Shown here one piece after another: positions 210-63,700 of a DNA stretch of 64,000 bases. The first letter of the stretch is position 1; the number at the start of each line of letters is the position of its first letter. The notes below the pieces were generated by a model. It saw nothing but the letters and a program-made list of their open reading frames with translations, had not been told where the DNA came from and ran no database searches. This DNA comes from Amoebophrya sp. A120 (Eukaryota > Protista > Dinoflagellata), in contig CAJINV010000006.1 of assembly GCA_905178155.1 (NCBI GenBank), positions 2,892,658 through 2,956,657 of the forward strand, read 5' to 3'. The translations under genes and the position numbers were made by a program.

Positions 210-3200
210 GGCATCTCTAGTCGAAGGCGGAGAACCGGAATTAGCGGTGGAGGAGTTTATCGGCGCTTGCATGCGACTATGAGATGATGAGAGCACAAGA
301 ACCTCCTATTTCCCTCATTTCAAGGAGGGCACCATGAGTACCAGGAATAGAAACACCGCTTAGCTACATGGACCTTGTGCAGCATGACAAGTTCTTGTAC
401 TTCCTGCGCCGTTTGATGATGTCCGGGATTTATTGTCATGCAAACTGCGCCAAATGAGTTATTATTATACAGCAACTGGATTTGGCACTTTGCATGACAT
501 CAAATGAGGGCCGCCGTGGGGGAAAGTTGTGCAATCTGATAGCGACTCAAGGGCGAGGCGAAGTCGAAGGATTCGTTTATCGTGCAGTTGTCGGTCATTC
601 AGGCGACGGAGAAAATCGAATTTCTCGGGAAGACCACGGAGAGATGCAAGAGGTGTTCTTGGAATCATGATTTTTTGTTATACTACGTTGTATCAAGTTA
701 CTTAATATTTTTCGCGGCCCGCGCCCTTGACATTCATGCTTATCAGGGGACCGACACCGAGGAAAAATTATGGCCGCTACTTTCTAGTTATGGTGGCGTC
801 AACGACGCTTTTTTCAAGTATGCTGAAAATTTTGATATGCATTTTTTTTCGCATGACGATTCGGGTTCCGAGCACTTGGGCGACACTCGAAGACATCGCG
901 CCCCGTTCCCACAGGGCCTGTGTCTATCAGCTTGGAGGCTGGCCACGTCAAGCTCCTCCGGGGCCCACTTCGTGGAGGGCCCGCCGTGTGGCATTCGCTG
1001 TTGGCGAGGCGCCACGGCGTCCCGAAGTGCACCAAGGGGCGCGCCCCTATGTGTTGGCGATGCGCATGCCCCGCCGCGCGGGCACACTTCGAGCAAGTAG
1101 AGGCGTTGCACAGGTTGGGCAAACCTCGACGATGCCGCGCAACATTGGGCCGCGTTTTTGGTTTCCCATCGATTCGGCGCGCCCACGTTCGTGGCGAAGG
1201 CTTTGCGGATGCGCCCTCCCTGTGCGCGACCGCATAGACATAGTCGGTGGGCCCGCCGCCAATCGCGAGCGCGGCGCCTGTGCGAGTTCAGTCCCCGCGG
1301 CGCCGCCCGCCCGCCGGGCCGCCGTGCAGCCCGCCGAAGCCTTTGCCGGGGTATGCCCCCGCGGCCGCGCAAGCCTGCCCGGCCCCGCGCGACCTGCCAG
1401 GCGACTGCGGGCCAGTAAATGCACTACCAGGAAAGCGTCGGCGGCAAGCCCCGGGGGCTGCCTCCGGAAGGGGTGAAAAGATGCCCCCAAAAAAAACGCG
1501 AAACCCCAGCGAATGATGCCCCTCAAAGAGGTCCCCAAACGTCCCGGAGCAATTGCCCGACGCCGGGCAGAGAATTCTCCGGAAATTGCGCCGAAGGACC
1601 TCTGCCTGTGCTTGGGGTGCCTCGGAAATAAAAGACAACAAAGCTGAAACGGGCCGCGCCCCCCCTGCAGGAGCCGCCGGTAAGTTGGCCCGAGCGCCGC
1701 CGCCAGGGATTTTGCTTCGCGATAGGCGGCACTGGCGCCTGTCAAGGGGGCGCGCACAGATTAGCGAGAGCAAAATGTTGGTGGTGTAGGGTCCACGCGC
1801 TTTGGCGGGCCAGGGTTTCCGGCCGTGTCCGGAAAAGCTGGCCCCCGTCCGGCCTTTTCTTCCAAGGTGCATTTTTTGGCATTATTTTCGCCCACTGCGC
1901 CCAATGTCTTCGCCGCTGGTATGTCGGCAGGGGTTTCCATAGATAGAGGAGAGACGGGGGGCCAACGAGGAAACCTTGGGCGGATGTCGGGAGGCGCCCT
2001 CCCTCCCCGAAATGATCTCAGACAATGCGCGCGGGCCAACACGGCGGGCCTGTTCATGGGCGTCTAGCTTGGCTCCCCTCTCATTGGGCCTGCGCAATCA
2101 AGTGCGCGGCCCGCTTCTGCAGTTTCATTGCCCGAATGCGCACGGGCGGAAGGGCGGCGCATTTCCAAAAAATACGCATAGAAAAATTCTCAGCATACTT
2201 GAGAAAAGCGTCGTTGACCGGGCCATACTAGTACGCAATCATGACGTTTAGTACAAAGAGAATCTTCCGTGTCTTGAGCACTTACTTAATACTGAAGGCA
2301 GAATTTTTGATGTGGCGCGTGTTTCAGATACGGTCTGTGTTTGTTTTTTTGTTTTTAACTGCAAATTTCTGGTCGATGCTTTTCAAGCATGCAAAATGAA
2401 AATCTTTTTATGAAACTTATTCAGGTTCATTGACGTTTCCCGGGGCTTAGTAGACCGCATGGATGTCAGTACCCCCATAATATATTTGTATGCCAGTACA
2501 CGAAGGGCCCTGCCCCTTCCTGTCCTAAAACAAGCGCCACATACAAATCGCCAGTGCATATAAAATGGGCAGTTTGTCTGGCCCCTTCTGGTCCCGCCGG
2601 ACCCTTCCAGCACTGGCCCGGCCGTCAAGTACGGGGCCCCAGTAACTACTGGAGGTCCCGTACGCAACTGGTCCTACGATGCCCCTGCGCCCTCGTTTTA
2701 TATTGCCCTGGTTTGGTCCGACTGCAATACGTGGCTGCCTAGCTAAAACAAAACAGCCACTCAGTGAAAAACATTGAAAAAAGCGCTACGCCTCGGTCTT
2801 CTCCATTTTCAGTAGACTCTGCAGCAAGAGTGCTTTGCTAAAGGAGCGAGAGAATTCTGCTAGCTACCAAAGCGCGCACGCGAAACAAACTCGGCCCTTG
2901 TATGTTTTCGAAGCGCCGCCTGCAAGCGTGCCGCCACCGCCTGCTAACAAAATATCGATCCGCAATAGTTCCTCACCGCGCGCGCGCCGCTAGTTTTTTT
3001 GGTTTAGCTCCCCTTTTCTCCGCTTGTGTCGCTCCTTGTGCGCAGTGCGCGCTCGGCAAGCCTCCCTTTGCGCTCTCCTGTTGTTCCGCGGAGCGATCTT
3101 TTCGCGCGCGGTGGATTGTGGCCTGCTTTGCGTAGCAATTTGCTGCTCTGTCACACTCACCACCAGCTTTTTATTCGCTTTTCTTGGACCATACAACTCC

Positions 3201-6200
3201 ATTGTATGCGTCCGGCAGTACATACAAAAACTGCTTTTTTGTATAGCGGATTTCGGTGTTCCTCTCTCCTTTCGTATGTATTCAGGCTTAGAAAAAAAAG
3301 AACACAAGCCAATTTTTAATCAAGCGAATATTTTTCGCGCCAAAAATATACTTCTGATAAAAAATATTCGTTTGGTAACGCATTGAACGGCGTCGCGAAC
3401 GACATTGGACACCGTACAGCGTTTGTGACCTGCGGGCGATCTAGGACAGAGGAGTCGCGCTGCGATCCCTTCTATCTTGAACACATAGCTTTGCTGCAGT
3501 TGCCGTTCCTTGTTGCAGTTGCGCACGTGTTTCCGCTACCGAGAAGCTTGCATCCGTTTCCTGGCCCCTTTGGGCAGAATGCGGCGCAATTGTCGCAAGT
3601 GGGTCGGTTTACTTATTTCTAGTTGCGCACGTTGGGAAGATGCGTAGTGCTATGCGAGCCGAGCGGTCGGCGGCCGGTCGCGAAAATGTTTTGCGCAAGC
3701 AGAGCCCGCTTCGGCTTTTTGCTTTGTTTGGAAGAGCGCGAGCGCCTTTTCGTGTTTTGCCAGCCTGCGCTCGGGGCCAGGAAAAAGCCTTTTGCTTATT
3801 GCGCGCGCCTATTTCGGCGCCATCATTGGTACTGGTGATGGTGTGCGCGTGGTGTTTTGTGCTCTTACGGCGGGAAAAAAAAAATCGGCGCGCTGCGCGC
3901 GCACAGGCGCCGTGGTTTTGGTAGTTGCTTGCGATGCCCTTGTCGCGTTTGGCAATCAGGGGCAGCGGCCGGCCGAGAAAAAAGACGTGGCGTGCTGCGC
4001 ACGCGCAGGCGCCCTGACTTGCTTCGGTAGTTAGGGGTTGGCCGAAAAATTTTCTTCGCGCGCTGCGCGCGCGCAGGCGCTCCGACCTTGTGGGGGCGCG
4101 ACAAAAATGCTGCTTCACGCCCGCCAGCAGCCGGGGTCTGGCCGACGAATGAAAAAGCGCTCGCGCGCTGCGTGCGCGCAGGCGCCTCGGCCTGGGTGCG
4201 GCGAAAATTTTTTGCAGCGCTCCCGGTAGTCGGGGGCTAGCAGGAAAAAAAATTTTCGCGCGCTGCGCGCGCGCAGACACCTAAGCACCGCGCGCAGGCA
4301 CCTCCGTAGGCTCTCGCGCGTCCTGGGGGCGCGGAGAGCTCTACTCGCGTCCGGCAGCCGGTGACCTGTCGGGGAAAAAATTAGTTCTCGCGCGCGCGTT
4401 GCGTGCGCGCAGACGCCTTGGACTGAGAGCGCGCAAAGTTTCTGTCGCGTGCGGAAGCGGGTGGCTTGCCGGAGAAAAATTCTTCGCGCGCTGCGCGCGC
4501 GCAGACGCCTTGCCATAGGGGCGTCAAGCTTTCCTGGGGGGGCTAGCCGGATTGATTGGCCGGCGGGCTTGGTCGCAAATTTTTTTCGCGCCCGGCAGTC
4601 GCAGCTTGGCCGGGCGACAATTTTGCGCGCGCGCGCCTGAGAACGCGGACAGCTTTGCTCACGGCCGGCAGCCCGTCGGGGGAAGGGATGCTCTGTTTGA
4701 AAAAAAAACTCGCGCGCTGCGCGCGCGTAGGCGTCTCGGCCCCAAAGGGTGGAGCTTTTTTTTGCGACCGGCACGCGGAGGCCTGATTGTAAAAAGTTTT
4801 CACCGCGCGCGCTCGTTGCCGCCTTGGTCTGAGGTCGCGCGCAGGAAATTTTTTCGCGCCCGGCAACAGAAACTGGAGGGAAGAAAGTTGTCGGGCGTTG
4901 CGGGCAGGCGCCGCGGCCTGAGAGCGCGCGCAGGGCGGAGCTCTACTCTTATTCTGTAGCCGGGGTTTTTACGGAAAAAAAGTGCGCGCACACGCTGCGG
5001 GCGCAAGCGCAGGCGCTTCGATCTGATAGCACGAAAAATTTTTTCGCGATCGGCAGGTGGGGGCTTGCCTGAAAAAAGTTTTCCTGTATTGCGCGCGCCC
5101 TTTGGCGGGCGCCTTTGCAGGAGAGCGCGATCGGAAAATTTTTTCGCGCCCGCCAGCCGGTAACTGGGAGGGAGAAACTGCGTCGCGCGCGAAGCAGGCG
5201 CGCGGAGTTGTTTTCTCGCTTTCGACAATGGTGGCCTGCCTTGGAAAAAAATTGCCGTTGCGCTGCGCGCGCACAGACGCCTTAGCCTGGCTGCAGGCGC
5301 CGCGCGCCTTCTTCTCGTCAAGCAGACAGTTGGGGGTTGATCGGATAGGGAAGCTCTTCGCCCGCTAGGCGCGCGCAGGGGCCTTGGCGTGAGAGTGTGG
5401 GGCGACGACTGAGGGCGCGGAGCGTTTTTCTCTTGTCCGTCGACCGGGCGCCGCCCTGGTTTTTCTCTATTAATCTCACTCCGCGCATTGTTCGCGCCCG
5501 GGGATTTTCCGGCGGGTGTTATCAACGAAACGCCCGGGCGCTGGCCGTACCATTCAGCGTAGCTAGGTTTTTCGTGCTCCCCGCGCAGCGTGGCGGGCAT
5601 GCTCCTCTAAAGGCCCCACGCATTCCCGCCCTGTCTCCAAGGCTGGGAGCTGCGAAAGCCGCATGCCCGCCCGGGTAAAAGTCACTTCAAGAAATAGCCC
5701 GCCAAAAAAATACGTCTACTGTTGCTGGCCGTCTTTTTCTGAGAGAAAAACCACTGCGCCTGTTGCTCGAGTCTCTGTTTCGCCAGCGCGCTTGCGCTTC
5801 GTGTGGGGAATCCTGGAAACCCGAGGAAGCCATGGGGCACGCAAGGGCGGGAGGGAGACTAGCGAAGGGCGTAGGTAGCAACGTAAGTCGAGGAATCGGG
5901 AGAAACAGAGGCTGTGGGGATGCGTGTGGGCTTCGGGAATGAGGAGGCACGCTCGCGGCTGCGGGTGCAGTCGTGCAGGCCGTCGCGGTCTGGCAATCGC
6001 TCAGGTCGCGCCTGCAAGCACCTTTCTGCGAGTCAGAGTCTTTGTTTCACTCTTCCCGAAGAAGCAACGTCTTAGGCTCCCTTCTGCCCGAAGTAGATAG
6101 ATAACTGCATATTGAGGGTTTCTCGGCCCTTCCGAGGCCGCCCTGGCCCTCCTTCGCCTTCTGACTGAGGCCGCCGTGGCCTTCTGAGGCCTTCTGAGGC

Positions 6201-9200
6201 CAAGAAGGATGCCGAGGCCAGACCAGTCAACCAAAAGGATATATCTTTTCAAAGATATATTTTTTTCAAACGAATACTTTCGCAATATTTTCGCCAATTC
6301 TTTGCCTTTTTTATGCTTTTGGTTTCTCTTTTTCTTATTCTTTTATTTCTTTTTTCTTTTCTCTTCTTTTCCTTTGTATTTCTCCTTATCTTCGTCATCT
6401 CTCCGTCCTCCCCTATTCAAGTGAATATTTTCAATCAAACGAATATTTTTCGTGTTCTTTCTCTCCGAGCTCAGATAGATGGCCCTTTCGTATGTTGTAG
6501 GTACCCTTCGCGTACTGGGTGCCCTTCGTGTACTGGTTCACATGCAAAGTGAAAATCTTTTTATGAAACTTATTCAGGTTCATTGACGTTTCCCGGGGCT
6601 TAGTAGACCGCATGGATGTCGTCCTGAAACGGCTGCTAGGAATTGCAAGGAATCTTCGATCTGGACGTCTGGAAGGTGGCTGCAAGACTTGTCTCAGGCA
6701 GTGATTTTGCATGAAGTTTACGCGTGATGTCTGTGATGTATGCCGTAGCATCTACTTCTTCGCGGATCTTGATGTGAGGAACTTATCTGGTAACCAAAGC
6801 GTGCGCAAGCGCCGCTCATCCATCACAAACGCAGCGCGAAGGCTTTGCCGTTGCCATATGGGAGGGACTCGAGAGTATGCAAACACTCGCAAAATCGAGC
6901 ATTTCCCAGTGTGTTTTGCCTTCAGAAAGCGGATCGGGCAGAATTTGAGGGAGTTTTACCGAAAGCAGCCAAAACAGCAATTATCAAGCGGGGAGAGCGT
7001 AAAAAAGAGCAGTTTTATTGCTCCGCCCGGTCTGAATCTGAAAAAAGATAGTGGCATTTTCGGCAAGGGCCGATGGTGTGATGCGTTTTATAGCGGAAAG
7101 TGCGTCACTTCCGGGCAGCTTCAGTCGCTTAAAAATTAAAAAAAAGGGCTTAAGAAGTGTGTTTTTTCACAGCATGCAAGCGGGCGACAAAATTTACCGA
7201 TTTTCTCCAGTCCCCGGAAGACGCTTAGAAATTGAAAAAAAACACGAAAAAAGTTACATTTTTCGCAGCGTGGAAGCGGCCGACAAAATTTACCGATTTT
7301 CTCCAGTCCCCGGAAGCTGCTTGAAAATTGAAAATGACAATTTTTGCTGAAAAAGCAAAAGCCGCTTACAAATTGCCGCTCCAAGACGGTTTTTCAAATT
7401 GTCACACGGCCCACACCGTCGAGATTGGAAGAAAAAATACAGCTACTAAGCCTGTGGAGGTGTGTCACACGGGCACGGTTTTCGTCCTCTCTGAGGGTCG
7501 CGACATGAGATCCCTCCTGCTTGGAAATGCCCGATCTGGGTGGCCCAAAAGGGCAGCCGGAAATGAAGAAAATTGCATCACTTTTTGAAATTCGTGTCTT
7601 TTACCTGGCCAGCGCGCCCCCGTGCGTAAGTAACGTTATGCGGGACGGTATAGTGGCCTCCAGAACAGGCTAGCGGTATACGGGCCAGGCGGCCAGTTTG
7701 TCATGCAGGGGCTAGAACGGATGCCCCGCTGCGAAATAGCAAACCGGATTTCGCCTTCAATGCTTATCGCAGGAGCCTGCGGGCCGCCGCGGGCGACAGT
7801 AGTTGTCCGCGGCCCTTTAGGGCCGCGGGGAAGTGATGTCTGTGATGCATGCCCTAGCATCTACTTCTTCGCGGATCTTGATGTGAGGAATAATTCCTGA
7901 TGCCCATACCGCCTGAGAACAAAAACTGCACCTTCTGCGTAAGTAGCAATTCGAATTCTCGTGCCCCTGGTGGAGCTGCTTGTTACGCGGCAACAAAACA
8001 AATTTTTGTAGAATCGAAACGCAGGAGCTGCATAATTACAACAAGTTTATTGCTGCATCCAAATGTCGTCCAGACCCAGATCGATTAAGAATTTGCAATG
8101 CATAGCTGCATATGAACTGCAAAAGTATCGTACTCGTATAAATGCATTACAAATTTTATCAGCATGAGAAATAAAATTTGTAATGCTGATTTGCCTTGAC
8201 AAAGAAATTTGTAATGCAAGACCTCGTTCGTCCCAAAGCCTCGCCATCGAGTTCGTCCCAAAGCCTCGCCATCGCTCTCAGAGCCTTCAAAACCTGTCCA
8301 GCCAGTGGATCCATTAAGCGGTCGACGAAATTGATACAACTAAGATCAGCACAGGAGCACTCAGGCAGATCACGAGGCAGGGTGAGGAACTTACAGGATC
8401 CCAAAAAAAAAAAATATACTAAGCAGGTAAAGACAAGAGGCTAAGAAGATCGAGCCCATCCAGATAGAGAAGCCCGGAGACGATCCAGACCAAAAAAAAA
8501 AAAAAAAAAAAAAAAANNNNNNNNNNNNNNNNNNNNNNNNNNNNNNNNNNNNNNNNNNNNNNNNNNNNNNNNNNNNNNNNNNNNNNNNNNNNNNNNNNNN
8601 NNNNNNNNNNNNNNNNNNNNNNNNNNNNNNNNNNNNNNNNNNNNNNNNNNNNNNNNNNNNNNNNNNNNNNNNNNNNNNNNNNNNNNNNNNNNNNNNNNNN
8701 NNNNNNNNNNNNNNNNNNNNNNNNNNNNNNNNNNNNNNNNNNNNNNNNNNNNNNNNNNNNNNNNNNNNNNNNNNNNNNNNNNNNNNNNNNNNNNNNNNNN
8801 NNNNNNNNNNNNNNNNNNNNNNNNNNNNNNNNNNNNNNNNNNNNNNNNNNNNNNNNNNNNNNNNNNNNNNNNNNNNNNNNNNNNNNNNNNNNNNNNNNNN
8901 NNNNNNNNNNNNNNNNNNNNNNNNNNNNNNNNNNNNNNNNNNNNNNNNNNNNNNNNNNNNNNNNNNNNNNNNNNNNNNNNNNNNNNNNNNNNNNNNNNNN
9001 NNNNNNNNNNNNNNNNNNNNNNNNNNNNNNNNNNNNNNNNNNTTTTTTAGCGCACCTTTATGATGGCCTTACTGTTGAAAGGATGGAGGGAGTTAAGTCA
9101 GTTTTTAGAACCCAGTCTGTTTATGCTAGCAAAGGGCTAGTGCGCTGTGGACCCCCAGGATCAGGTAGACGAGGTCCCAGACCGAAGTGGTAGGCGCTTA

Positions 9201-10853
9201 GGGTGAACTATGTATGTAGCGCTTAGGGCCCTTCCGTACGGCCAATTTGTATGCCCGCAACGGGGTTCGCCTAAGTCGGTCATTTATATGCAAGGCGTTG
9301 GGTTACCCGGTCGGCAGAGCCGATCCACAACGAACGAACGAAGACCTGCATTTATACGAGTACGATACTTTTGCACAGCATACTGCAGAGAATCGTGCCC
9401 CACCGGCCCGGCGTGGAAAAAAACCTCACCAAGGAGGAAAAATTCTTCCTGTATTACAGTGAAAAATGCCCCCACCCCCAAAGTTGCAGAAATTTGTGAT
9501 GCGAAATTTTCAAATGAAAACTTTTTGCCATGCATGAAAGGAGTATGAATCTTTCTGATGCAGAGTCTAGGCGTGTATCGCATCGCTTGCATGACAAGCG
9601 CCGCTCTTGCCGGGATCTTCTGCAATACAAACCTTTGCGATTCACGATTGGAAATCTGTGATGCTGATAGATGCAAGAGGGCGAATGTTTCTATTGGAAA
9701 GGTTTGCAACACAAATGCTCCCAATTTCGGGGGTGGGGGCATTTTTCATTGTAATATCCTGGTGCCGCAGTTTACCGACAAAGTCCCACTCTATGGAACG
9801 ATTGCACAACTCGCTCACTTGTTCTCGAGGCTTTGTCTATTCATCTTCCATTTTCTAATTTATTAGATTTACAAACGGCGACACGCAGAAGCAGAAGCAA
9901 CTAAAGAATTTTTTTTGCAACGGCCTCATCTGTAGTCGTGTGCAAGATGACAAATGCTATAAATGCATCATCAAAAATGAATAAAAAAGAGAGCGAAAAA
10001 ATAATCCGGAGGAGTCGTTGTGCAATTTCATACCCTCGGCGTGCCCTACGGTTTCGGGCGGATCGCGATGCAGAAATCAAAGGGCTACGACAGGAACTTT
10101 CAACCCAGATTCGACGAGCTCCGTCGTTTGGGCGGCCTCAACCAGGAGATCTCGCAGGCGAAGGCACTGTATCCTGTGCAAAAGTTGTATATATCGTACT
10201 AGTATAAACCGCATGACAAATTTCTCAGCGTGATGAAAAATGGAACTTGTAATGCGGATTTAGGTTGAGAAAAATATTTCTCATGCGTGACTGCGATTAA
10301 TAGTACGAGGTGCGATACGACTTTTGCAATGCATAGACTGCTATCCTGTGCAAAAGTATCGTACTCGTACAAATGCTAACGCAAGTCTTGCATTACAAAT
10401 CTTGTTTCCAAGGCAAATCTGCATTACAAATTTTATTTCTCATGCTGAGGAAATTTGTAATGCATTTATACGAGTACGATACTTTTGCACTGGATAACTG
10501 CGGATGAGTCGGAAGAAGAAGAAGGGCGTTGCGGTATAACCCGCTCAGCTGTTACAATCTCAAGTGTTACAATAGAATATGAAAATCTGTGATGCAAAAC
10601 ACACATGGCCTAGCCTACTCCCACAGCATTGCGCATGACAAGTTCTGGAGTCCCAAACTGCACGAGAATTATGTGGCGAAATTTGTAATGCAGAAAGTGG
10701 AACGCTGTGCGGGTCTGTCATGCTCATCATGCAACACAAAATCCAGATTCTATTGTAACGTTTGAGATGGTAACCAATTTGAGCGGTTCATATGCGGGGG
10801 AAATCACGGTGCTTGGGGAGGGAATTGGTGGTGGAAAGGAAAATTTGTACTGA
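210..10853 (+). CDS. 3' part of a multi-exon gene: EF-hand-like motif plus coiled-coil tail, probably the C-terminus of an ion-channel-type protein (5' end lies upstream of the window)
   Basis: Removing the TAT..ATA elements at 1, 278, 6637, 8111, 9452, 9792, 10170, 10342 and 10535, plus a large intron (~643 to ~6598, boundaries uncertain), gives ...ELAVEEFIGACMRLKGEAKSKDSFIVQLSVIQATEKIEFLGKTTER-LVDRMDVVLKRLQRIVPHRPG...VPLGVPYGFGRIAMQK...ALRMSRKKKKGVAGEITVLGEGIGGGKENLY, ending TGA 10851-10853. EEFxxxCMRLKGxAK resembles the post-S6 EF-hand region of dinoflagellate channels (recognised from memory, not searched). Confidence 0.65.
708..2281. mobile_element. Old GC-rich intronic insertion with subterminal inverted repeats
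   Basis: IR GTCAACGACGCTTTT(T/C)TCAAGTATGCTGA(A/G)AATTTT at ~798-833 versus ~2183-2218; flanking direct repeat TTACTTAATA at 698-707 and 2282-2291. Boundaries are uncertain. Confidence 0.55.
2468..6540. mobile_element. 4.07-kb non-coding insertion flanked by an 80-bp target duplication
   Basis: 2388-2467 equals 6541-6620 (1 mismatch). Perfect 16-bp asymmetric subterminal IR CCAGTACACGAAGGGC at 2493-2508 and 6521-6536; hairpin at ~2629-2664; internal degenerate repeats. Confidence 0.85.
3875..5285. repeat. Dispersed degenerate repeat: A/T tract followed by CGCGCGCTGCGCGCGCGCAG(A/G)CGCC, about 10 copies
   Basis: Copies near 3890, 3995, 4060, 4165, 4258, 4390, 4486, 4711, 4985 and 5262. Confidence 0.85.
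6782..7832. mobile_element. 1.05-kb insertion flanked by a 58-bp target duplication, nested in a family A introner (6637-8104)
   Basis: 6724-6781 equals 7833-7890 (2 mismatches). Hairpin CCGCGGCCC-TTTA-GGGCCGCGG lies just inside the right end; internal ~76-bp duplication at ~7160 and ~7258. Confidence 0.85.
8225..9340. mobile_element. Insertion with 7-bp TSD nested in a family B introner (8111-9382); spans the assembly gap
   Basis: TSD AAGACCT at 8218-8224 and 9341-9347; termini CGTTCGT...ACGAACG; poly(A) 8492-8516 precedes the gap. Confidence 0.75.
8517..9042. other. Assembly gap
   Basis: Run of N. Confidence 1.
9452..9756. mobile_element. Introner family C, representative (~305-335 bp)
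   Basis: TIR TATTACA(G/A)TGAAAAATGCCCCCACCCCC; repeat TCCTG/TCCTG. A close reverse-complement copy lies at 20817-21125; others at 28961 and 57968. Confidence 0.95.
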
Positions 10854-12925: not shown

Positions 12926-15900
12926 ATGATGAGCGACCCCCTGGACCACGTTGAGGCAGCAGCGGTCGCCCCCCCGGAGGGGTCGCAAGGTCAACAAATT
13001 CATCCGGGTGCGGCAGTTCTACACCCAGACGAAATTGCTGCTGCCGTGGTTGTATCAAGTGCAAAAATGTCTGGGTCTGGAAGAATGCATGTTTGTCATG
13101 CTTGTCTGGCATGACTCTTAAATCTGTCATGCACTTTTACCCAACAGCTCCATTTTTCTGTGATGCAGAAACGCAGTTCGTCATGCAGAATAGGCAACAC
13201 CTAGAAGCTCAGATGAAACTTGTCATGCTAAGCCAGCACTTGTAGTTGCCTCATCATGAGACGCCGCCCAGCATCACAAGTTTCCAGACCCAGACATTTT
13301 TGCAATTCATAGGTTGCTGATGTGGAGTCCGACACTGAGTCGACGACGAGCTCCGTCTATGCAAAGAAAAAAGTGTTACAGTACGTATACACATTGTGTA
13401 GTTCTTGCAAGACCGGTAAGACAGTAAACCTTTGTCATGCACGAACTGCTTTCGAATTCGAGGCTTGTTTCATATTCACGCGTGTTCTTTTACCATCTCT
13501 GAATGGCAAGTTTTCTCTGTCATGCAGAGATGAAAATTTGTGTCTCTACTGCATGTTGTAATTACAACAAATGTGTACCTACCTGTAAATGCACGTTTTT
13601 CGCGGGATACTGTCGTGGACCAAAATTCCCTACAAGTGGATATGAACTGCAAAAGTATCGTACTCGTATAAATGCAATACAAATTTTCCCAGCATGAGAA
13701 ATGAAATTTGTAATGCTGATTTACCTTAAAAGAAGGATTTGTAATGCAAGACTTGCATTTATACGAATACGATACTTTTGCACAGGATAGTGGACCACCA
13801 CCAACAACTTCATGTCCCCATTATCAAATGCAAAAATGTTTGGGTCTGGAAACTTGTGATGCTGAACTGCGCATGATTGAAGCGCTTCCAATGGCAGCCA
13901 AGCATGACAAGTTTTTGAGAGGCCTGCTGATGCCTAGCACGCATTACAAATTGCGTTTTTGCATGACAAAGAAAGCCTCTGTTTTGCTGCTCATGCAACA
14001 CAGATTTTCCACGAATGCATGACACGCATTACAAGTTCCACTTTTCCAGACCCAGACATTTTTACATTTGATACCCATTCTCGGTGGCGTACAAGGCAAC
14101 AGCCACTCTCTCAACGACACACTGGCGCAGTCCCGCATCGACACGGCGCGATTGCTGGGAAGCCGCGGCTTCGTGTTCCCCCCAGCACCAGGAACATCAA
14201 ATGGGGCAACTGCCAACGTGGTGGACGCAGGACCCGGAGGCGCAAATTTGGCCGGGAATGGCGGGTCCGGGGCACCCACGCCGTTTGGGGCCAACGATTA
14301 TCGTTTTTTCGCGAATAATTCCGCAATGACCCACCTATTACCGGAGCACATTGAGGACGATTTTTTGCGGTTGCAGGCTATGCGAAGAAAAATCTGTTTC
14401 ACTGTGGTGATTTTGCAAGATCTGCATCACAACTTTGTTACACATGACAAAGAAATAAACTTGGCATGCGTGCTTCCTAAAAAGGGAAATAAACACAACT
14501 AGAAATAGAATGTGTTTCATGTGTAGCAAGACAAACACATTTGCGTTGCGTTCTATCATGCATCACGAAGTTTACAGTGAAACAGTTTTTTCTTCCCGCG
14601 ATACAGGCGGAACAGAAAATTTTAGAGACCGTGATGCGCGAGAACAGGCGGCTTGAGGACGAAATGCTGTTCTATCGGGACAGAACCAAGGATCTACTGG
14701 AACGGGAGAAAACGTATGTTAATGTGATTCTGTTTCCACCTTTGAGAAGGTTCAAAGACCAAGCTTTGAATTTCGCTTATATGGTGCTGATGCTGTGCTG
14801 CTGTGTAAGACAGGACATGTCATGTTGTCTCGCATCGTGGTCCACCAACCGCGCGACAACGACAAACACACATGACGAAATAAATCAGGCTTCGCATTTC
14901 CCAGATGGAAAACCAATCGAAGGCGGAAGCGCTGGAATCGTCCCGGGACCAGGTGTATCCAATGTAAATATCGTCCTTGAATCTAGTCGGGAAACTTGTA
15001 AAGTGCTCAGTTGCAAGCCCAGCATGAGAAATTTAATATTCGCGCGGCTTCAAACATATTCTTGTTTTGCTTTCCGCATATGAAACTGCGTTTTTGCATG
15101 ACAAGAAAACGGTCAACATCCCTTCTTGGACACGCAACACAAACTCTTCAGTCATGCGAGACACACACGCCAGCGTGAGTACAAACATTTTATCCTTCGA
15201 GACCACCCAGATCGGTATTTGCAATGCATAAGGTTGCCGACAACTACGGCAAAAAGCTCTTCAAGCTGGAGCGGCATTATCAAATGCAAATATGTCTGGG
15301 TCTGGAAAAGTGCAACGTTTGTCATGCACGTTTTGCATGACGCGTGAGGTCTGTGATGCATGCCCTAGCATCACAGATTCTGTGAGATCTTTTCCATGCC
15401 TTTTCCGCATGGATGAGAAACTGCCTCTCGGCCTTCTTAAAAATAAAAGTGAACAGCTTTATTGGTAATCACGCAACACAGATTTTTGCATGCTTCAGAT
15501 TTAGCATGACAAGTTGTACTCTTCCAGACCCAGACACTTTTACACTTGATAGGCATTTGGCGAAGACGAAATTCGAAAACAAGCAACTGAAAACCGAGAT
15601 GGTAATTGCGCAACAGCATGTGTTATCCTGTGCAAAAGTATCGCACTCGTATACGTATTGCAATCATGCATTATCTTGAGGTAGATCAGCATTTTACAAA
15701 TTTCATTTCTCACGCTGAGGAAATTTGTAAATGCATTTATACGAGTGCGATACCTTTGCAGTGGATACGTGTATGAGCAGCAGGAGTTTTTTGAAAAGCA
15801 CATGACCAGCATGGAGGAGGCGCAGGAAAGAGAAAGCAAGGACAAGAAATATCCTAAGCAAAAACGTCCCCACCCCATAGTCAAGTTGGGAATCTAGCAA

Positions 15901-26087: not shown

Positions 26088-27340
26088 GTTTGATTGGTTC
26101 ATATGTAAAAATTCCGCGGTACGTTGTGTTAGCAGATGATCCGAGGTTGTAGTATTGATGGGGACAGTCCCGCTTTAGTACTTCTTTACAACCAATTGAT
26201 TCATTGTTGCACCCTGCGGCGCTGCTAGCGTGGTCGCAGCAATCTTCCTTCCGGGAGAACAAGAAGAAGATGTTTGGGGGGAGCAAGACAGAAAACTTTG
26301 TTGACACGACCAAGCGTGAGCTCACTGTTGTAGCGAAGATGATGAACGAACGACCAGATGAGTTGTACACGAAGCAAGAAGCAGAACCATGAAGCACCAA
26401 AAATGAAGTATCACGAGGAAAAATCCCCCCTCCCCATATCAAAAGGAAGTTTCTGATGCTGGATATCCGTATACAAATCAAATTTGTCTTGCAGTAGAGG
26501 GCACCAGGCTCCAACCAAGCCTGAGGAGAGAGCTTTTGGCCTAGGGGCTTAGCATGCGAGACGTCTATGCTGCAGGCCCAACAGCATCACAAACCGCCTG
26601 CATAATGCGGCAGAGCCTGTGGAGTTGTCTTTTTGCAAGACAGACGTGATTTGTGGTCTCAAATCAGCAAGACAAATTTCCGGAAGCATACCTTTCCGAT
26701 ATGGGGAGGGGGGATTTTCCCTCTCAATATGAAAATGAACACTACGATAAACCACGACCCCCGAGGACGTCGTGGTCCTCTTCTAAGGCGGCACATCTGT
26801 CAGCTACCTAATATGAGAGTGCACAACTCCCCCTCCCCCTCATTTGCAGGGCAGGAGCAGCAATACAAACACCAACACACTTGGAGCCTGTGCATGACAA
26901 GTTCACGGGCCGAGTGCAGTACTGTTTGGGCTCCTTCTGAAATTTGTCATGCAAACAGTTTCACAAGGCACCAAATGACTTGGGGACTTTGCGTCACATC
27001 TGAGGGGGAGGGGGATTTCGGGTTGTGCGCAACTGTTATACTCAACACTTACCCCCGGAAGAAGATCATGTTCAGACGTCGAACAGAAAAAAAGAAATAG
27101 AGCAACCGTGGTTAAGTAGACTCGTTTAGCACGAAAGAAAAGTGAAAATAAACCAAACTATTTTCATTTCAATCTATCGACTTCTTCTTTCTTTGCCTCT
27201 GTGCTTCACAGCTCGGTCGTCCTCTGTAGGGGAAGAACGTCTTGCCTACTAAGTGAAAATGTCGTTATTTCGGTAGCTTTTACCTCGTGCAAAATTGATA
27301 AACAGCGACAAAGTACTAGAATAGTGACGTTGCGTCTACG

Positions 27341-27740
27341 CTTGCGACAAGAAGGACAACTCGGTGACGATGCTTCTACGCTTGCGAAAAGAACTACAAC
27401 TCGGTGGCTGTGCTTCTCGTACGAAAAGACCTACAACTCGGTGGCTTTGCGTCTCTTGCGAAAAGAACTACAACTCGGTGGCTATGCTTCTCGTACGAAA
27501 AGACCTACAACTCGGTGGCTTTGCGTCTCTTGCGAAAAGACCTACAACTCGGTGGCTTTGCGTCTCTTGCGAAAAGACCTACAACTCGGTGGCTTTGCTT
27601 CTCGTTCGAAAAGAACTCCTCGGTGGCTGTGCTTCTCGTGCGAAAAGAACTCCTCGGTGGCGTTGCGTCTCTTGCGAAAAGAACTGCTCGGTGGCGTTGC
27701 GTCTCTTGCGAAAAGAACTGCTCGGTGGCTGTGCTTCTTT
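27341..27740. repeat. Minisatellite of about 11 units (mostly 37 bp, then 34 bp)
   Basis: Unit CGAAAAGA(A/C)CTACAACTCGGTGGCT.TGC.TCTC.T.; the last four units are 3 bp shorter. Confidence 0.95.
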
Positions 27741-34100: not shown

Positions 34101-35065
34101 GTCTTGCGCAGCAACACTGCCCTCGAACTCGAAGGTAAGCAGATTCGAACTATACTAAAGTATCCATGTCGTGTTTATCTATTATCGACCTCGGCATATT
34201 AAGACTCAGATGAATGTGTCAAGAGATTCCCACGGCAAACTCCTCCACCATCAAAGTGCAGCGCCACAGCCAGACTGCATACAGAGTCCTGCCCTTTTGC
34301 CTGTAGCAGTAGCGCAGCACCTCTATTGTGGTTTCCGGTTTCGATTTTATTTGAACGCGTGCAGCAGCAAGGCCAAATTTCTTTATCTTCCACTTTCATG
34401 CAATAAATCGGAGTTTTTTTTTTGTAGTTTGTGCCATTTTGTTTTTTTTTTTCGGGATCACGCATGGCTCGACAAGGCCGCGACCGTTCAGTTTTTTTTC
34501 CGGCCTTTTGGCCGACATTACTTTCCCAAGTAGAACAAGAACAAAACAAAAAGAGCGCTAAAGGCCGGGGCCCCCGAGTTCGTTGCCGTTGGTAGGTGAG
34601 TAAATGCTCGGAGTCTTTCTCTTTGTCTTTTTTAAACATTCAAGCACACAGCACCTCTGCACCCAGCAGAAAGCTTCGCCTTCGGTATGAACAGACCGGA
34701 AGGCGTTGCTATGTTTGTGCCTAGAGTTCGACTCGTTATTATCAGATTTTTTTTTGCTATTTTGTAGAAAATAAATGGCACTTTCTAGGATTTTTCGTTT
34801 TCCTGTCGCAAACCGTGCTTATTGATTCCACCCTCATCGTATCAAAGGCAAGAGTGTCTCGGTCTGGAAGATTCTGAACTTGTAATGTTGTCTCTGGATT
34901 CTGAAAAAAATTGTATTGCATGACCAGCAAGGGGACTCCACTTTGTGCTACTCGGAGAGGGCGTATCTCATGCGGTAGAGGTATCGCAAAGCGCTCTAAA
35001 AATCTGGGATGCTACGGCATGCATCACAGACGTTTTTGGGTCATGGAAAATATGCATGACAAATC

Positions 35066-35417
35066 CGCTGCGACTGCTCGCCTTGCTTGCGGCTGCTCGC
35101 CATGAAAGCAACTACATTGTGGCTTGCCTCACTTTTTTAAGAGGGGTTTTTTCGTAGATGGGTCTGTGTCATAGTAGATACTTTACCGCTTTTTTACTTT
35201 TCTTTTCTCCCCCGGCGCTAGTGTTATTGGTTTGCACACAAAGTTATCCCTACTTAGATAACGACAAAAGCTCACCCTGCAGCCGTCCCAGGAGCTCTTT
35301 GCTGTTGTCTCTCGGTAGTGATCGCTTTGTCCAAGTCGATTTCTGCTAGAGTTTGCTGAGTATGCGGCTACCGTTTTAGGCTATTTACATAGGGACGCCC
35401 TGCCCTTAGTTTCCCAA
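35066..35417. mobile_element. 352-bp insertion with 11-bp direct repeat inside a family A element (34840-35466)
   Basis: CATGACAAATC at 35055-35065 and 35418-35428; no TIR seen. Confidence 0.6.
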
Positions 35418-38400
35418 CATGACAAATCTAGAAATCTTCCAGACCCAGACACTTTTGCATTTGATACATCGGGGCCATAGCCACGTGCTGCCAGGGATCT
35501 TCATCACCGACAAAATAGAGGCCATTTATTTTCCGAACCATATTTTTCCGTGGATGCTCTTAGACTTCAGATCTACATCTACTTCTGCTTACTTCGGATC
35601 AACATCATGCGGTCTCGGACCAAGACGGTGTCCAGCACATTAAATGTGACATGCAAATGAAGATGATATCTCTGCTCAGTAGTAGTTGTAGTAAAATATG
35701 AAACAGTATGAAATTCAAGTTCAAGCACGTATTCTTCCGTGTACTCAGCGAGTTTCTAGTACTGTCGGCGCTATTCTTGTTAAAGTATTTCCTTTATCAG
35801 TTGCCTTGCACCTGCAGCAGTATTCTGCAAGGCAAAAACAAGAACAGCGGGCTCAGTCCTTCGCTGGATTTTCCGTATTTTTTATCAACTTCTCACTTCA
35901 GTAAAGCTAAAATCGAAGGTGTATACCAATACTTACACTCGAAGGGAGAAGCGGTCTAAAAAAGTCAAAAAATCAAAAAAAAAGCCTAATCGACGTCATT
36001 GGAAGTGGTAAAAACGTATACTCATTATTCCTTTTTCATCCTTGTTTGGTAGTAGTAGAAGTAGTAGTGCGTACAACTCTTCCATCGGGTGTCTTTTCCT
36101 CGCGTGTTGATTCCATTTCAACATGCACGGGGAGGGGAACGCGAACGACCGAAACGATATACTTCGTCATGCACTTCTACCTGAAACCATTTTCGCACCC
36201 GTGTAAAAAACACCAAAAGTAGGGGGTAGGCCCAGCAGACGCAGAATTATTTTGCCTTGTGCAAAAAGAGAAGCAGAAGCAGAATTTTTACAATTGAAAT
36301 CCTTCTTCTTCTTCTTGAGTACAAGCATGCCGGGGCGTAGAAGAGGGCCCTGGTGTTTACATTACTCAACATGACAACTCTGCTTGTCACATTTATTTTC
36401 ACTGTCCGACTATACGGATCGGTCCGTCATGGGAGGTCCGTCATTGGCGGTCAGTTGCTTTTCTGAATGCAGTTTTGATTTCATTTTGGGAGGTTATTTG
36501 TGTAGTATTTCGCATCCGAACGCTCCGAGGCATTTTTGTTCAATACAAATGCCAGGAGATGAGACAGGTTGCAGAAATATGAAAAATGTAAGAAAGTTCG
36601 AGTTGCAGTCAGAGCGAGTTTGTTTTACCTATATTACGAGCCTGTAGTTAGAACTACCGGCTATAGCTCTACAAAGCAAGCGCTTTTCTTCAGACTCTTG
36701 CTGTTCGCGCCAGCGGCTTGACTTCTTGCTAGAGCCAGTACTTTTGAGCGGGTATGAATGATCACCCGCGTCACTTTTTATTCTTGATTCCCACTTTGTT
36801 ACTTCTTTGTTACTTCGCATTTTTGTATGAATTACTTTTATTAAATAAAATGAATTATCGACCCCGTTTTGATATACTAGCTTCCGGTTGATGTGTGCGT
36901 GGTGTCTCACGATGCCGTGCAAGTTATTTATTGCAATTATTTTTTCTGGGTCTGGAAGAATGCAAGGCGTTTCATGTTGCTCGGCCAGCATGTCTCTCAT
37001 GTCTGTGATACATGTAGCGCGAAAGTAGCGGGAGCGCTTTGCCATTCTTCTGCTATGCAAGCATAGCATGAGTCTGTCGTGCAGAACATGAATAACGATT
37101 ACCTAGCCCCGCAAGAACTTGTCATGCGGAGACATCAAAAGTTGTAGCGAAGCGTGCTGGTAATTCTTCTCCAAGAACCAGAAGCACGAGTTTTCAGATT
37201 CAGACATATTTGCAATGCGTACAAATGGTGCTAGTAGTCCCAAAGTAGTAGTTTTCGGCGTTGTTTAATACGAGGTGGTAAAAAAAAAATTCCAGCTGGT
37301 GCCCCACAGCTAGATCGACTATTTTGCTAATTTAAATAAGTATATAAGACACAGTATCGAGACTGACTTTGATGTGTAGTTTGTTTTCATATCCATACCA
37401 TATATTTGTTGTAGTTGAAGATTTTGAATTTCGTCTGCTCTACCAGTACAGTACTAACGATGTTTCATCAAAGCCGCGTTGAAATTCTGTAAAAGAAAAG
37501 CTAGGGAGTGGGAGAAGGAGCAGATGAAGTAGGAACAGGACCACAAACACGTTGTCCACCCAATCAAGGGAGGTCAACGCGTATTGAGGAACGAGCAGTG
37601 TAGTTGGGAACACGAGCTAGCTTTACCTCTCGCAGATTTTCGATCGTCATCGCGCAATATAATAACTACCGAATTGCTCTAACTCTATTGCTTTATAGGG
37701 CAGTTGCCCTTGCTGGAAACGAAAAAAGCAAAACGAGAAAACTTTCGTCTCCACAGAAGCAAAAGGATTTCATTTGAAAACAAGAAGGGAATAAAAACAA
37801 AAAAAAACCTCCGGCAGTAGCGGCCCACTGTTGCAGACGCGGCCGCGGTTGCTTATTATGATGCCGCTTTTCTCAGGAGAATGTAAGGCCGCGCGTGTTC
37901 TTTGCTATTGTTACCTCTTTCACAGGCTACTTCTGTCGTGTTGGTATCCTCTTTCCCGTTTATATTGTGGTCTGCGTCGGCCACCTGACAGGCATCGATC
38001 AGAGAAGAAGAACTGCTCGATGTGTGGTGTGATACAAGAACATTGCTGCACCCAGCCGCACAGAGGACTAGTAGGGCCGTTCTTGCTTTATGTCATTTTG
38101 TTGTACTGGCTTACTATGTCACCCACGATAACTATTATCTTCTCGTCGTCGTTCTCCTTCTCGTATGTAAACATTTTTCGGGGTGAGCGTGGTGGTGTCG
38201 CAGTCGCAGAGAGAGTTTATTTCGTCCGTCACGAATATATTTTATCATATTGATAAATGATATTCCACCACTACTCGAGGAGAGGCGTCATAATTTTGGG
38301 AACAAACATATAAACTTCTCAAATATGAGTTTTCCCCACCTGCCGTGGTTCGTCGTGGTCTTTTTCGCAATTTTGTCGTGTAAAAAATCCTCTAGGACAT

Positions 38401-60725: not shown

Positions 60726-63700
60726 ATGACGATCATGCCCCGCAACGGCACTGGCAACCCCGCGAAGCATGCGGGGCACCACCAGCTGCAAAGCCTGGAT
60801 TTTTTTGCGGCTGGAGGAGCTCCTGGAGGAGCTGCCCTCGGCGGAGATCTGTTTTCCGGAGCAGCGAAGAAGACGCAACATGGGGCTTCTTCTTTTTCTA
60901 ATGCCTATAATGCGATCCCGAGCTGCGACACTACTAGTACCACCGACCTTCTCGCCAAACTGCACCAAATGAACCGAAAAATCAACGACTTGGGGCTGTG
61001 CAACAGCATATGCAATGCAAAACTATCGTACTAAGTACAAGTAGCAATCGCATGGCAAATAGATTCAGTATAAAATAAGACGTAAATTTGTGATGCTATT
61101 CTGCCTGAGCCTGTACGACAAAGATTCGTGATGCATAAGTGTACTTAAAAATCAGTACGAGTGCGATGCTTTTGCGTAGGATACAGCACCATTGACATCG
61201 ACAAACTGACTTACCTCTTCGAAAAGCACATCGACGACATCGACGAGCGGGGGGCCGTGAATGAAATGAGTCAGGATCTGTTGCAGGTGATTAATGATTT
61301 ACTGATCCATATCGCAGAACGAAAAAACTGTTCCACTATGGTGATTTTGCAAAATCTGCATCACAAGTTTGTTACGCATGACACTGAAAATCTGTCATGC
61401 GGGGTTCCTAATGTAGGGAAAACACAGCGAGAAATCCATTGTCTTGCGCCATGTGATATAGCAAGACAAATCATTCTGTCGTGCTCCATTCTATGCATCA
61501 CAAGTTCACAGTGAAGCAGTTTTCTCTTGCGATAATCCAGTTTATCTCCTATCAAGCTGCCTACGACCGACTCTCGGGCTATCAAAATGAAAAATCCCCC
61601 CTTCCCATATCGAACAGGAAATTCGTGATGTTGGATTTGCCTACACAAATCAGATTTGTCTTGCAGTAGAGGACTGCAGGCGGATGCAAAGCCTGCAGCG
61701 GGGCGCTTAGAGGTGGGCGCTTGGCATGGCAGGCGTCTGCCCTGTAGGCCTTGCAGCATTACAAACCGGCTGGATAATGCGGCGGGCTCGCTGCCTTTGC
61801 CCTCTTGCAAGACAGACAGGATGTGTGGCCGCAAATCTGCGTCACAAATTTTCAGAAGGGCGCGCTTTCAATATGGGGATGAGGGATTTTTCCTCACAAT
61901 ACGGGCAACGCGACAACCATCGAGAATAAATTGCTCAACGCGGAAAACTATGGCAATGGGAAAATCGCACTTATGCAGCAATCATTGCAAGACAAATCTC
62001 TTTTCCAAGCCAGATGAGCATGACAAACTCCATTTGTCATGTTGAGGAAATTTCTAATGCAGTGGCTACTAGTATACGAGTTCTAGGTCTAGTGCGATTA
62101 CTTTTTGCACTTCATACTTACAGCTTGGACGGCCGTTAGAAATCATCTTGGCGAATTTCTTGCGAATTTATAGGGGAAAGACCCGCAGCGCGGCCTGGGC
62201 ATTGGTGTCGGGCTTGGGATTCTGCGTTGCCAACGCATCTATGACGCCCCGCTCGTATTCCGCGTCTTTTTGGTGTCCCGACGAGGAGGGGCAAAACCAG
62301 CAAAATCTTTCCGCGCCGGGCGCCTTGGTCGGTGCCCGAGTTTTGGGCCCAGTGGCTGCACTAATGTGCCCCACCTAGGAGCACCATCGCGCCACACCGG
62401 GAACAGAGCTCGCGCGCGATGGACAGGGAGGGCATCAATTGCACCCCCTTCCCCCTGAGTTGTCCTCGAATGCCAAGAGTTTTGCTCTTGCGACAGGTGG
62501 GCACAAATCTGTGCATTTTGGAACACAAGGCCTCGGGACTTGGTCTACAGATTTTGCCTCTGCGAATTTAGAAAAGTGGCCCTCGCGAATTTCGCGCGAA
62601 TTTAGAAAAGTGGCCCTCGCGAATTTCGAAAGCCCGACCTGAAATTGCGTTTTTTTCTAAATTCGCGCGAAATTCGCGAGGGCCACTTTTCTAAATTCGC
62701 AGAGGCCGCTTTTGCAAATTCGCACGGGCCACCTTTGTAAATTCGCAAATCGAGAATACCGCCCTGATTGGGCATGCCTTTAAACGCTTAGCCCGATGGT
62801 GCTCTGGTGTTCCAACTTTAGCAAAATTCAAAAATTACATCTGAAGCCGCATGGTATGACGAGAAAGCGGCTGTGATTGTGCGTGACGGCGTTAAAAGTT
62901 TCGCATCTGGCGCAAAAAGCTGCTGCTCATAATTGACGCCGTGGCAGTTTCTAAGCCGGCGCCTGTCGCATCGAAAGCGAAGAGGCCCCCTCGATGGTGA
63001 GGCACGGGAAACGCAGCAAATTTCCTTGCGTCCCTCGGAAGGGCATGGGACCGCGAACAGGGTGGCCACGTGATTGGCCACCAGACGTTGGCGCTTGGGT
63101 TTGCGCTGAAATTCGCTTGAAATTCGCGCCTGCTCTTTCTAATGGGTGCCCAAGCTCTAACTTCATACGAGCTTGGCGCAGCAGAAGAGTAAGAAGCTGA
63201 AGGAAGCGGAATTGAGAATCGAGAAGGAGAGACGCGAACACACGGCGGAGAAGGAGCAGCTGGTGAAAAAAGTCCGGATTCTGAACACGACAAAAATTCC
63301 GGAAATGACCAAGAAGATCCGGTATGAACTGCAAAAGCATCGTACTAGTACAAATTGCATTACAAATTTTCTCAGCATGACAAATGCAATTTGTAATGCT
63401 GTTTTACCTTAGGAAGAAGATTTGTCATGCATATTTGCAATTAGTACGAGTACGATACTTTTGCACAGGATATCCGGCTACTGGAGAAGAAAAACGCGGT
63501 CTACGTGAAAGAACTATCGCCAGAAAAAACTGTTTCACTGTAAACTTGTAATGCAGAGAATGCATCTCACAAGTGTTTGTCTTGCTACACATGCAAGACA
63601 GTGGATTCTTAGCTGTGTTTTCCCTTAGGAACCTTGCATGGCAAATTTTCTCTGTCATGTAGAGCAAACCTGTGATGCAAAACCTGCAAAATCCTTACAG

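What the first reader, a model, noticed from the sequence alone, without database searches (positions are those of the whole stretch)
6637..8104. Second long-duplication insertion (58 bp) nested inside an introner
Seen: the duplicated 58-mer begins with ordinary family A interior (compare GTCTGTGATGCATGCCCTAGCATC near 15350), so it is again target-derived. The 1051-bp insert ends in overlapping GC hairpins (~7787-7828). The host keeps its GCTGC/GCTGC repeat and the frame. Inference: two independent 58-80 bp duplications within 6 kb suggest a recurring mechanism such as widely staggered nicks or template switching, and that an introner tolerates expansion to 1.47 kb.
Basis: partly seen in the sequence, partly recalled or inferred. 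Interest (0 to 1): 0.7.

Follow-up and report, generated by a model that had tools for sequence, protein, structure and literature searches.

The report
Truncated Helitron-like insert with long duplication
A jumping-gene fragment, likely of the rolling-circle (Helitron2) kind, sits inside a mobile intron between two copies of 58 bases of that intron, probably because one end was joined properly and the broken end was patched by re-copying host DNA; a similar signature is already described in a green alga.

Summary
A 58-bp repeat (6724-6781 / 7833-7890, 56 of 58 identical) flanks a 1051-bp insert inside a family-A introner; the repeat is target-derived, and RNA-type contigs join the flanking exons in frame. 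The insert belongs to a multi-copy non-coding family. A whole relative (L001) has asymmetric subterminal inverted repeats, a 5' hairpin, central tandem repeats and a 3' stem-loop: the anatomy of non-autonomous Helitron2/Helentron elements. The window copy keeps its 5' end but lacks about 276 bp of the 3' end. Best reading (0.6): one-ended rolling-circle insertion completed by microhomology-primed re-copying of the empty target. Truncated Helitron2 copies with 44-443-bp duplications are published for Chlamydomonas, cause unknown. New here: another lineage, no Fanzor gene, the opposite end kept, and a neighbouring 4-kb element with an 80-bp duplication. Not shown: the left junction in reads, an autonomous partner, genome-wide recurrence.

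The parts
6637..8104 (.). Host family-A introner (TIR type), expanded from about 359 to 1468 nt
6632..6636 (+). GCTGC direct repeat, left (last bases of the exon)
8105..8109 (+). GCTGC direct repeat, right
6724..6781 (+). Target duplication, copy 1; carries the derived base at both mismatches
6782..6782 (+). Single C: either a mutated 59th base of the duplication, an untemplated base, or part of the element end (a run-X6 copy also has CTTA here)
6783..7835 (+). Non-coding Helitron2-like element, 5' end kept (inferred terminus T6783), about 276 nt of the 3' end missing
6788..6806 (+). 5' subterminal inverted repeat (19 of the 21 nt of L001); its 3' partner is lost in this copy
6788..6856 (+). 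Predicted 5' hairpin that includes the inverted repeat (z -1.5 here, -2.4 in L001, -5.3 in L002)
7123..7334 (+). Central tandem repeat, 96-nt unit, a little over two units
7762..7835 (+). Left arm and inner stem (7807-7828) of the family's 112-nt internal palindrome; truncation point
7833..7835 (+). GTG microhomology shared by the family sequence (L002, L003) and the start of the duplication
7833..7890 (+). Target duplication, copy 2; family-like base at both mismatches
   Evidence: run X3 contig 7809-8110 with 0 differences
6578..6636 (+). Host-gene exon upstream of the introner
8111..9382 (.). Adjacent family-B introner (CTGCA repeats), itself holding an insert and the assembly gap; removed from the transcript with the host
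2468..6540 (-). Neighbouring 4073-nt non-coding element with 16-nt asymmetric inverted repeats (2493-2508 / 6521-6536), flanked by the 80-nt duplication 2388-2467 / 6541-6620

Best explanation
A non-coding mobile element, likely a non-autonomous Helitron2 (rolling-circle) transposon, lies inside the introner with its 5' end intact and its 3' end cut off in an internal palindrome, and the 58-bp duplication was probably made when that broken end re-primed on the empty target 58 bases upstream. Shown: the repeat, its target origin, the family's anatomy, the truncation point, the 3-nt microhomology, removal from the transcript. Inferred: (1) a RepHel transposase supplied in trans made the precise 5' joint; (2) copying stalled or was cut at the 112-nt hairpin; (3) the free 3' end annealed by GTG to an uninserted strand (the other strand of the insertion heteroduplex, or the sister) and synthesis re-copied the 58 nt; (4) the two mismatches arose later. 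Because an empty template is needed, the event was most likely coupled to the insertion itself.
For: Family anatomy from the one whole relative, L001 (1 of 3 loci): perfect 21-nt inverted repeat 5 nt from one end and 28-30 nt from the other, a short stem-loop after the 3' repeat, a 5' hairpin, 110-nt central repeats; L003 confirms the 3' end, L002 the 5' end. All 4 family 5' ends seen (window, L001, L002, a run-X6 contig) have T at the same register, as does the 4-kb neighbour. These match Helitron2 and HINE/DINE-1 as described in PMC3627910 and PMC4067079 (passages). The insert is multi-copy: up to 17 contigs with variant bases and summed depth 438-1012 (6780-7129) and 1537-4773 (7680-7829) in run X1 against 21-27 for flanking single contigs (the tool warns that depth is no copy number). 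The cut lies 4-7 nt past the inner stem of a palindrome folding at -65.4 kcal/mol, z -12.9; a run-X6 copy leaves the family sequence at 7831 into unrelated flank, and L002 is rearranged at the same spot. The whole copy L001 has no long flanking duplication (at most 3 nt), as in Chlamydomonas, where whole copies lack and truncated copies carry duplications of 7-19 and sometimes 44-443 bp. In Helraiser the 5' end is essential, the 3' end is not, and a hairpin terminates (PMC4778049 passages).
Against: No autonomous RepHel partner was found or could be searched for. The inverted repeat is longer (21 against 8-15 nt) and slightly deeper (5 against 0-4 nt) than described; no TTTT or TT target is evident (5' flanks end C, G, C, A). 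The 5' hairpin of the window copy and the 3' stem-loop of L001 are weak against dinucleotide shuffles (13 and 6 of 200 shuffles fold as well). In Chlamydomonas the 3' end is kept; here it is the 5' end. The 4-kb neighbour has an 80-bp duplication with apparently intact ends, no microhomology and no stable hairpins, so this exact route does not explain it. Both derived bases lie in copy 1, not in the copy predicted to be newly made. A single-depth contig in X1 and X2 runs from 6591/6550 to 6781 and goes on for 241 letters that are not the insert, and no listed piece bridges 6781/6782.
Confidence: 0.6

Rival explanations
1. Transposase-independent repair: a break or stalled fork in the introner was patched by two template switches, into an existing copy of the element and back to a point 58 nt upstream.
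For: Microhomology and a strong hairpin at the right junction; template switching into DNA transposons is documented (PMC8277862 passages).
Against: The left junction falls within 1 nt of the family's inferred 5' terminus, and shows no microhomology; a random switch into a 1.5-kb element would rarely do that. The neighbour also begins at its terminus.
Confidence: 0.14
2. The family is moved by another enzyme (retroelement TPRT as a SINE- or Penelope-like passenger, or a one-ended DDE/YR event) and the duplication reflects staggered nicks.
For: Long duplications are known for Dualen LINEs (median 900 bp) and R9 (126 bp) (PMC9977147 passages). The family's 3' end reads ...CATA like the ATA ends of local introners.
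Against: No poly(A) or simple-repeat tail, no Rfam family at gathering score, hence no hammerhead, asymmetric inverted repeats, internal deletion derivatives that keep both ends (joint 6866-7762), and no 5-bp repeat around L001.
Confidence: 0.1
3. Secondary recombination: unequal exchange between an inserted and an empty allele, or between two copies inserted 58 bp apart, duplicated the interval.
For: Two mismatches between the copies could be allelic; an empty-site path may exist in the DNA runs.
Against: Exchange between two whole insertions would leave both element ends; here one is missing. Two such events within 6 kb are unlikely. No other differences in 6591-6781 (X1) or 7809-8110 (X3).
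Confidence: 0.08
4. Assembly artefact or chimera of an empty and a filled allele.
For: X1 and X2 contigs leave 6781 without entering the insert; 241 letters fit 7891-8131 by arithmetic (the letters themselves were not shown). The left junction is not bridged in any listed piece.
Against: Both versions of the 58-mer exist in runs with 0 differences (copy 1 in X1/X2, copy 2 preceded by 24 nt of insert in X3, a different sample). The junction coincides with the family terminus. Short low-depth links into high-depth repeats are dropped in contig cleaning (own knowledge); the 80-bp duplication shows this, its contig starting at 6591 in X1 but at 6550 in X2 of the same sample.
Confidence: 0.08

Closest known systems
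Non-autonomous Helitron2 families CRe-1, -2, -3 of Chlamydomonas reinhardtii (Bao and Jurka 2013, PMC3627910; abstract and passages read)
   Same: Asymmetric terminal inverted repeats, 5' T, hairpins; truncated copies flanked by variable duplications, some 44, 50, 93, 242 and 443 bp; whole copies without; read as one-ended transposition.
   Different: CRe copies keep the 3' end, encode Fanzor and follow TTTT; this copy keeps the 5'-repeat end, is non-coding, shows no T-rich target, breaks at an internal palindrome with microhomology, and lies in an introner of another lineage.
HINE / DINE-1, non-autonomous Helentrons (PMC4067079; passages read)
   Same: Subterminal inverted repeats near the 5' end and 40-60 nt from the 3' end, 3' palindrome, central tandem repeats, no coding capacity.
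   Different: Described as making no target duplication and inserting at TT; repeat here is 21 nt against 12-15.
Replitron-1 of C. reinhardtii (PMC10288648; section 9 read)
   Same: HUH-type element with one precise end, one imprecise end and variable target duplications; the paper calls the cause of such signatures in Helitrons unknown.
   Different: Replitrons have short direct terminal repeats; this family has inverted ones.
Dualen LINE long duplications (PMC9977147; passages and section 7 read)
   Same: Mobile insert flanked by duplications over 50 bp.
   Different: Retrotransposon with two endonucleases; no retroelement feature here.
TIR-type introner elements of Amoebophrya (PMC7789003; passages read)
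   Same: Host has inverted ends and a short direct repeat over the exon boundary and is removed from the transcript.
   Different: Expanded about fourfold by a nested element; the taxon of the window is inferred from intron style only.

Membership tests
Helitron2 / Helentron (HLE2), non-autonomous | Asymmetric inverted repeats: one near the 5' end, one 20-30 nt from the 3' end | tested here: met
   L001: 21-nt perfect repeat, 5 nt and 28-30 nt from the inferred ends; window copy holds only the 5' one. Longer than the 8-15 nt described.
Helitron2 / Helentron (HLE2), non-autonomous | 5' hairpin involving the 5' repeat | tested here: met
   Predicted in 3 of 3 copies folded; z -1.5 (window), -2.4 (L001), -5.3 (L002).
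Helitron2 / Helentron (HLE2), non-autonomous | Stem-loop between the 3' repeat and the 3' end | tested here: inconclusive
   5-bp stem in L001 and L003, -5.3 kcal/mol, 6 of 200 shuffles as good; absent from the truncated window copy.
Helitron2 / Helentron (HLE2), non-autonomous | 5' terminal T | tested here: met
   T at one register in 4 of 4 family ends seen; the terminus is inferred from alignment, no empty sites.
Helitron2 / Helentron (HLE2), non-autonomous | Insertion at TT or after TTTT | tested here: inconclusive
   5' flanks end in C, G, C, A; 3' flanks begin T and C if the end is CATA. Termini uncertain by a few bases; too few copies.
Helitron2 / Helentron (HLE2), non-autonomous | No target duplication for whole copies | tested here: met
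   1 of 1 whole relative (L001) has at most 3 nt. The 4-kb neighbour, another family, appears whole yet has 80 bp.
Helitron2 / Helentron (HLE2), non-autonomous | Autonomous partner with the same ends encoding RepHel of the HLE2 clade | not testable with these tools
   No genome held; records behind L001-L003 not searchable.
Helitron1 | 5'-TC and CTRR-3' ends, single 3' hairpin, no inverted repeats | tested here: not met
   3' end reads ...CTTCATA and inverted repeats are present.
Replitron | Short direct terminal repeats | tested here: not met
   Self-comparison of L001 shows inverted, not direct, end repeats.
Non-LTR retroelement / SINE / Penelope-like | Poly(A) or simple-repeat tail, or hammerhead ribozyme | tested here: not met
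   No tail at either end; none of 6 Rfam matches reaches gathering score.
TIR introner (host) | Inverted ends, 3-5 nt direct repeat at the exon boundary, removal from mRNA | tested here: met
   exon 6636 joined to 9387 in 3 of 3 RNA-type contig runs laid. Use of the host's own ends, rather than one joint excision with the next introner, is not resolved.

The most novel reading that the evidence does not exclude
In this lineage Helitron2-like elements of several families routinely finish insertion by host re-priming and so make long (50-100 bp) target duplications without any Fanzor nuclease, even when both ends are intact; such duplications copy splice acceptors or introner interior, let kilobase inserts hide in introns, and drive introner divergence.
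Probability: 0.2. Interest if true: 0.7.

Novelty: new variant of a known kind. Interest (0 to 1): 0.42.

Why it matters
Rolling-circle transposons are textbook examples of elements that make no target duplication. The published exception I found is Chlamydomonas, where the cause is called unknown and Fanzor nucleases are the tentative suspect (PMC10288648). A non-coding element in another lineage, with the break at an internal hairpin and microhomology at the repaired end, points to host re-priming instead and gives a countable test in a genome with many copies. It also shows nested inserts being removed from a transcript through non-canonical introns. As a single old insertion it is not a new system.

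Tried and rejected
Whole genome not held and records behind L001-L003 not searchable, so the genome-wide scan for long flanking repeats was not done. Rfam: 6 matches, none at gathering score. Viral contigs: 0 hits for two family motifs; 32 loci for a 16-mer of the 4-kb element, none with a BLAST match at E 1e-3, treated as chance. Prokaryotic genomes: 0 hits. Stop-free stretches in the insert reach 118 codons inside it, in the 4-kb element 275 codons over its tandem repeats; they look like repeat read-through and were not searched against protein families. The reading that the GC hairpins are a natural terminus was rejected. The reading that the 58-mer belongs to the element was rejected: other copies have unrelated flanks. 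Error-prone synthesis of the new copy is not supported: both derived bases are in copy 1. A 49-61-nt repeat in L002 flanks gene-like DNA, not such an element. Earlier scan notes: 0 findings in 3 look-ups.

Full report
Observation. The host runs 6637-8104 between GCTGC repeats. Removing the insert and one copy leaves 359 nt that align end to end with 9 hand-picked family-A introners. The first half of the 58-mer is family interior (28 of 29 at 15344), the second half is found only in the two copies, so it is this host copy's own sequence, duplicated. At the two mismatches copy 2 has the family base (C in 9 of 9 and in 7 of 9 relatives; the copy-1 bases in 0 of 9).

Is it real DNA? No genome was held. 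Ten runs were listed and 6 laid. A contig of run X3, a sample other than the best DNA holders, matches 7809-8110 with 0 differences: 24 nt of insert, copy 2 and the right half of the host. This is short of the tool's 31-letter rule for bridging but supports the right junction. Copy 1 is matched with 0 differences in X1 and X2 (one sample, possibly the source of the assembly, so not independent). Against: that contig goes on for 241 letters that are not the insert; by arithmetic they would be 7891-8131, an empty-site path (letters not shown). I read this as contig cleaning that drops short links into high-depth repeats (own knowledge of such assemblers); the 80-bp duplication behaves differently in X1 and X2 of the same sample, which fits. 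A true empty allele is not excluded. No listed piece bridges 6781/6782, and the tables were cut (463 pieces and 95 loose ends unseen).

Transcript. In 3 of 3 RNA-type contig runs laid (X3, X4, X6; two samples, one study; RNA is the tool's guess) the exon ending at 6636 continues into the exon at 9387, and an upstream GT..AG joint leads to the acceptor inside the 80-mer. The path is open in one frame. So the expanded host and the adjacent introner are removed. Because their direct repeats overlap, one excision 6637-9386 gives the same product; that the 1.47-kb host is spliced by its own ends is inferred only.

What the insert is. It has no second copy in the window but many variant contigs and high summed depth at both ends in the DNA runs. 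An exact 30-mer from its right end hit 3 contigs of the metagenome collection; L003 also carries introners related to the window's, so these come from a related organism. L001 holds a whole element of about 1470 nt: a perfect 21-nt inverted repeat 5 nt from one end and 28-30 nt from the other, a short stem-loop after the second repeat, a 5' hairpin, 110-nt central repeats and a 112-nt internal palindrome. L002 shares the 5' end, L003 the 3' end. The window copy is 68% identical to L002 over aligned positions and 97% over 7683-7838. It starts at the family's 5' end and stops 276 nt short of the 3' end, a few bases past the inner stem of the palindrome. There L002 and L003 read on with GTG, which is also the start of copy 2 (L001 has TTG): 3 nt of microhomology. 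A run-X6 copy leaves the family at 7831 into unrelated flank and L002 is rearranged at the same place, so the spot is a recurrent breakpoint. L001 has no flanking duplication beyond 3 nt.

The neighbour. The 4073-nt insert has 16-nt inverted repeats 4 and 25 nt from its ends, central repeats, and on the minus strand a 5' end in register with the family above. Another copy with a different flank matches up to 6542, and X3 covers its other junction with 0 differences, 30 letters on the short side. It lacks stable hairpins and microhomology and looks whole. It is the same layout but a weaker fit, and the truncation route does not explain its 80-bp duplication.

Mechanism. A precise 5' joint points to an enzyme; a cut in a strong hairpin with microhomology points to re-priming. 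The order copy 1 - element - copy 2 - original continuation needs an empty template, which exists in the heteroduplex of a single-strand insertion or on the sister. I therefore favour one-ended rolling-circle insertion finished by microhomology-primed re-copying (0.6). All enzymatic steps are inferred. Rivals are repair without transposase (0.14), another enzyme with staggered nicks (0.10), recombination (0.08) and artefact (0.08).

Comparison. The anatomy matches Helitron2 (PMC3627910, abstract and passages) and HINE/DINE-1 (PMC4067079, passages; also PMC5148889 and PMC11417382, passages). Membership is likely but not proven: no RepHel partner could be sought, the target preference is unclear and the repeat is longer than described. 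The combination of truncation and long duplication is published: truncated CRe-1/2/3 copies carry 7-19-bp and sometimes 44-443-bp duplications, and PMC10288648 (section 9) calls the cause unknown. Differences here: the 5'-repeat end is kept, as Helraiser requires (PMC4778049, passages), whereas CRe copies keep the 3' end; there is no Fanzor gene in the copy; the lineage differs. The intron style resembles Amoebophrya (PMC7789003, passages); this is an inference. A search for Helitron with Amoebophrya gave 2 papers, 1 listed, whose passages assign no Helitron to that genus; the text of the PMC7789003 supplement has no 'Helitron', but its Figure S4 is an unseen image. Searches for long duplications with Helitrons gave no other such case among the rows I opened; most listed papers were seen as listings only.

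Verdict. Real with about 0.9 probability, a new variant of a known but unexplained signature. Interest 0.42.

Noticed in passing
window 35066-35417: A 352-bp insert inside another family-A introner (about 34839-35467), flanked by an 11-bp duplication (35055-35065 / 35418-35428); class unknown.
   Followed up: partly
window 8225-9340: Insert with a 7-bp duplication and 7-bp inverted ends inside the family-B introner; holds the N gap 8517-9042 next to a poly(A) run.
   Followed up: partly
window 2388-2467 / 6541-6620: The 80-bp duplication copies a splice acceptor and 43 nt of exon, so the 4-kb insert ends up intronic; X3 has read-through contigs from copy 1 into the insert at depth 11 against 251 for the spliced contig.
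   Followed up: partly
window 789-2228: 1.44-kb TIR element with introner-like ends, CTAGT repeats and a GC-rich interior, variant copies in X1 and X6, inside the same 5.9-kb GT..AG intron.
   Followed up: no
window about 62117-63160: Another element of about 1 kb with long imperfect inverted ends and GC-rich, internally repeated interior.
   Followed up: no
window 27320-27740: Tandem array of 34-37-nt units in an intergenic stretch.
   Followed up: no
L002, reverse strand 617-677 and 4538-4597: 49-61-nt direct repeat 3.9 kb apart around gene-like DNA with introners; no subterminal inverted repeat seen.
   Followed up: partly
window 8105-8110: Two introners are separated by a net one-base exon because their direct repeats overlap.
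   Followed up: partly
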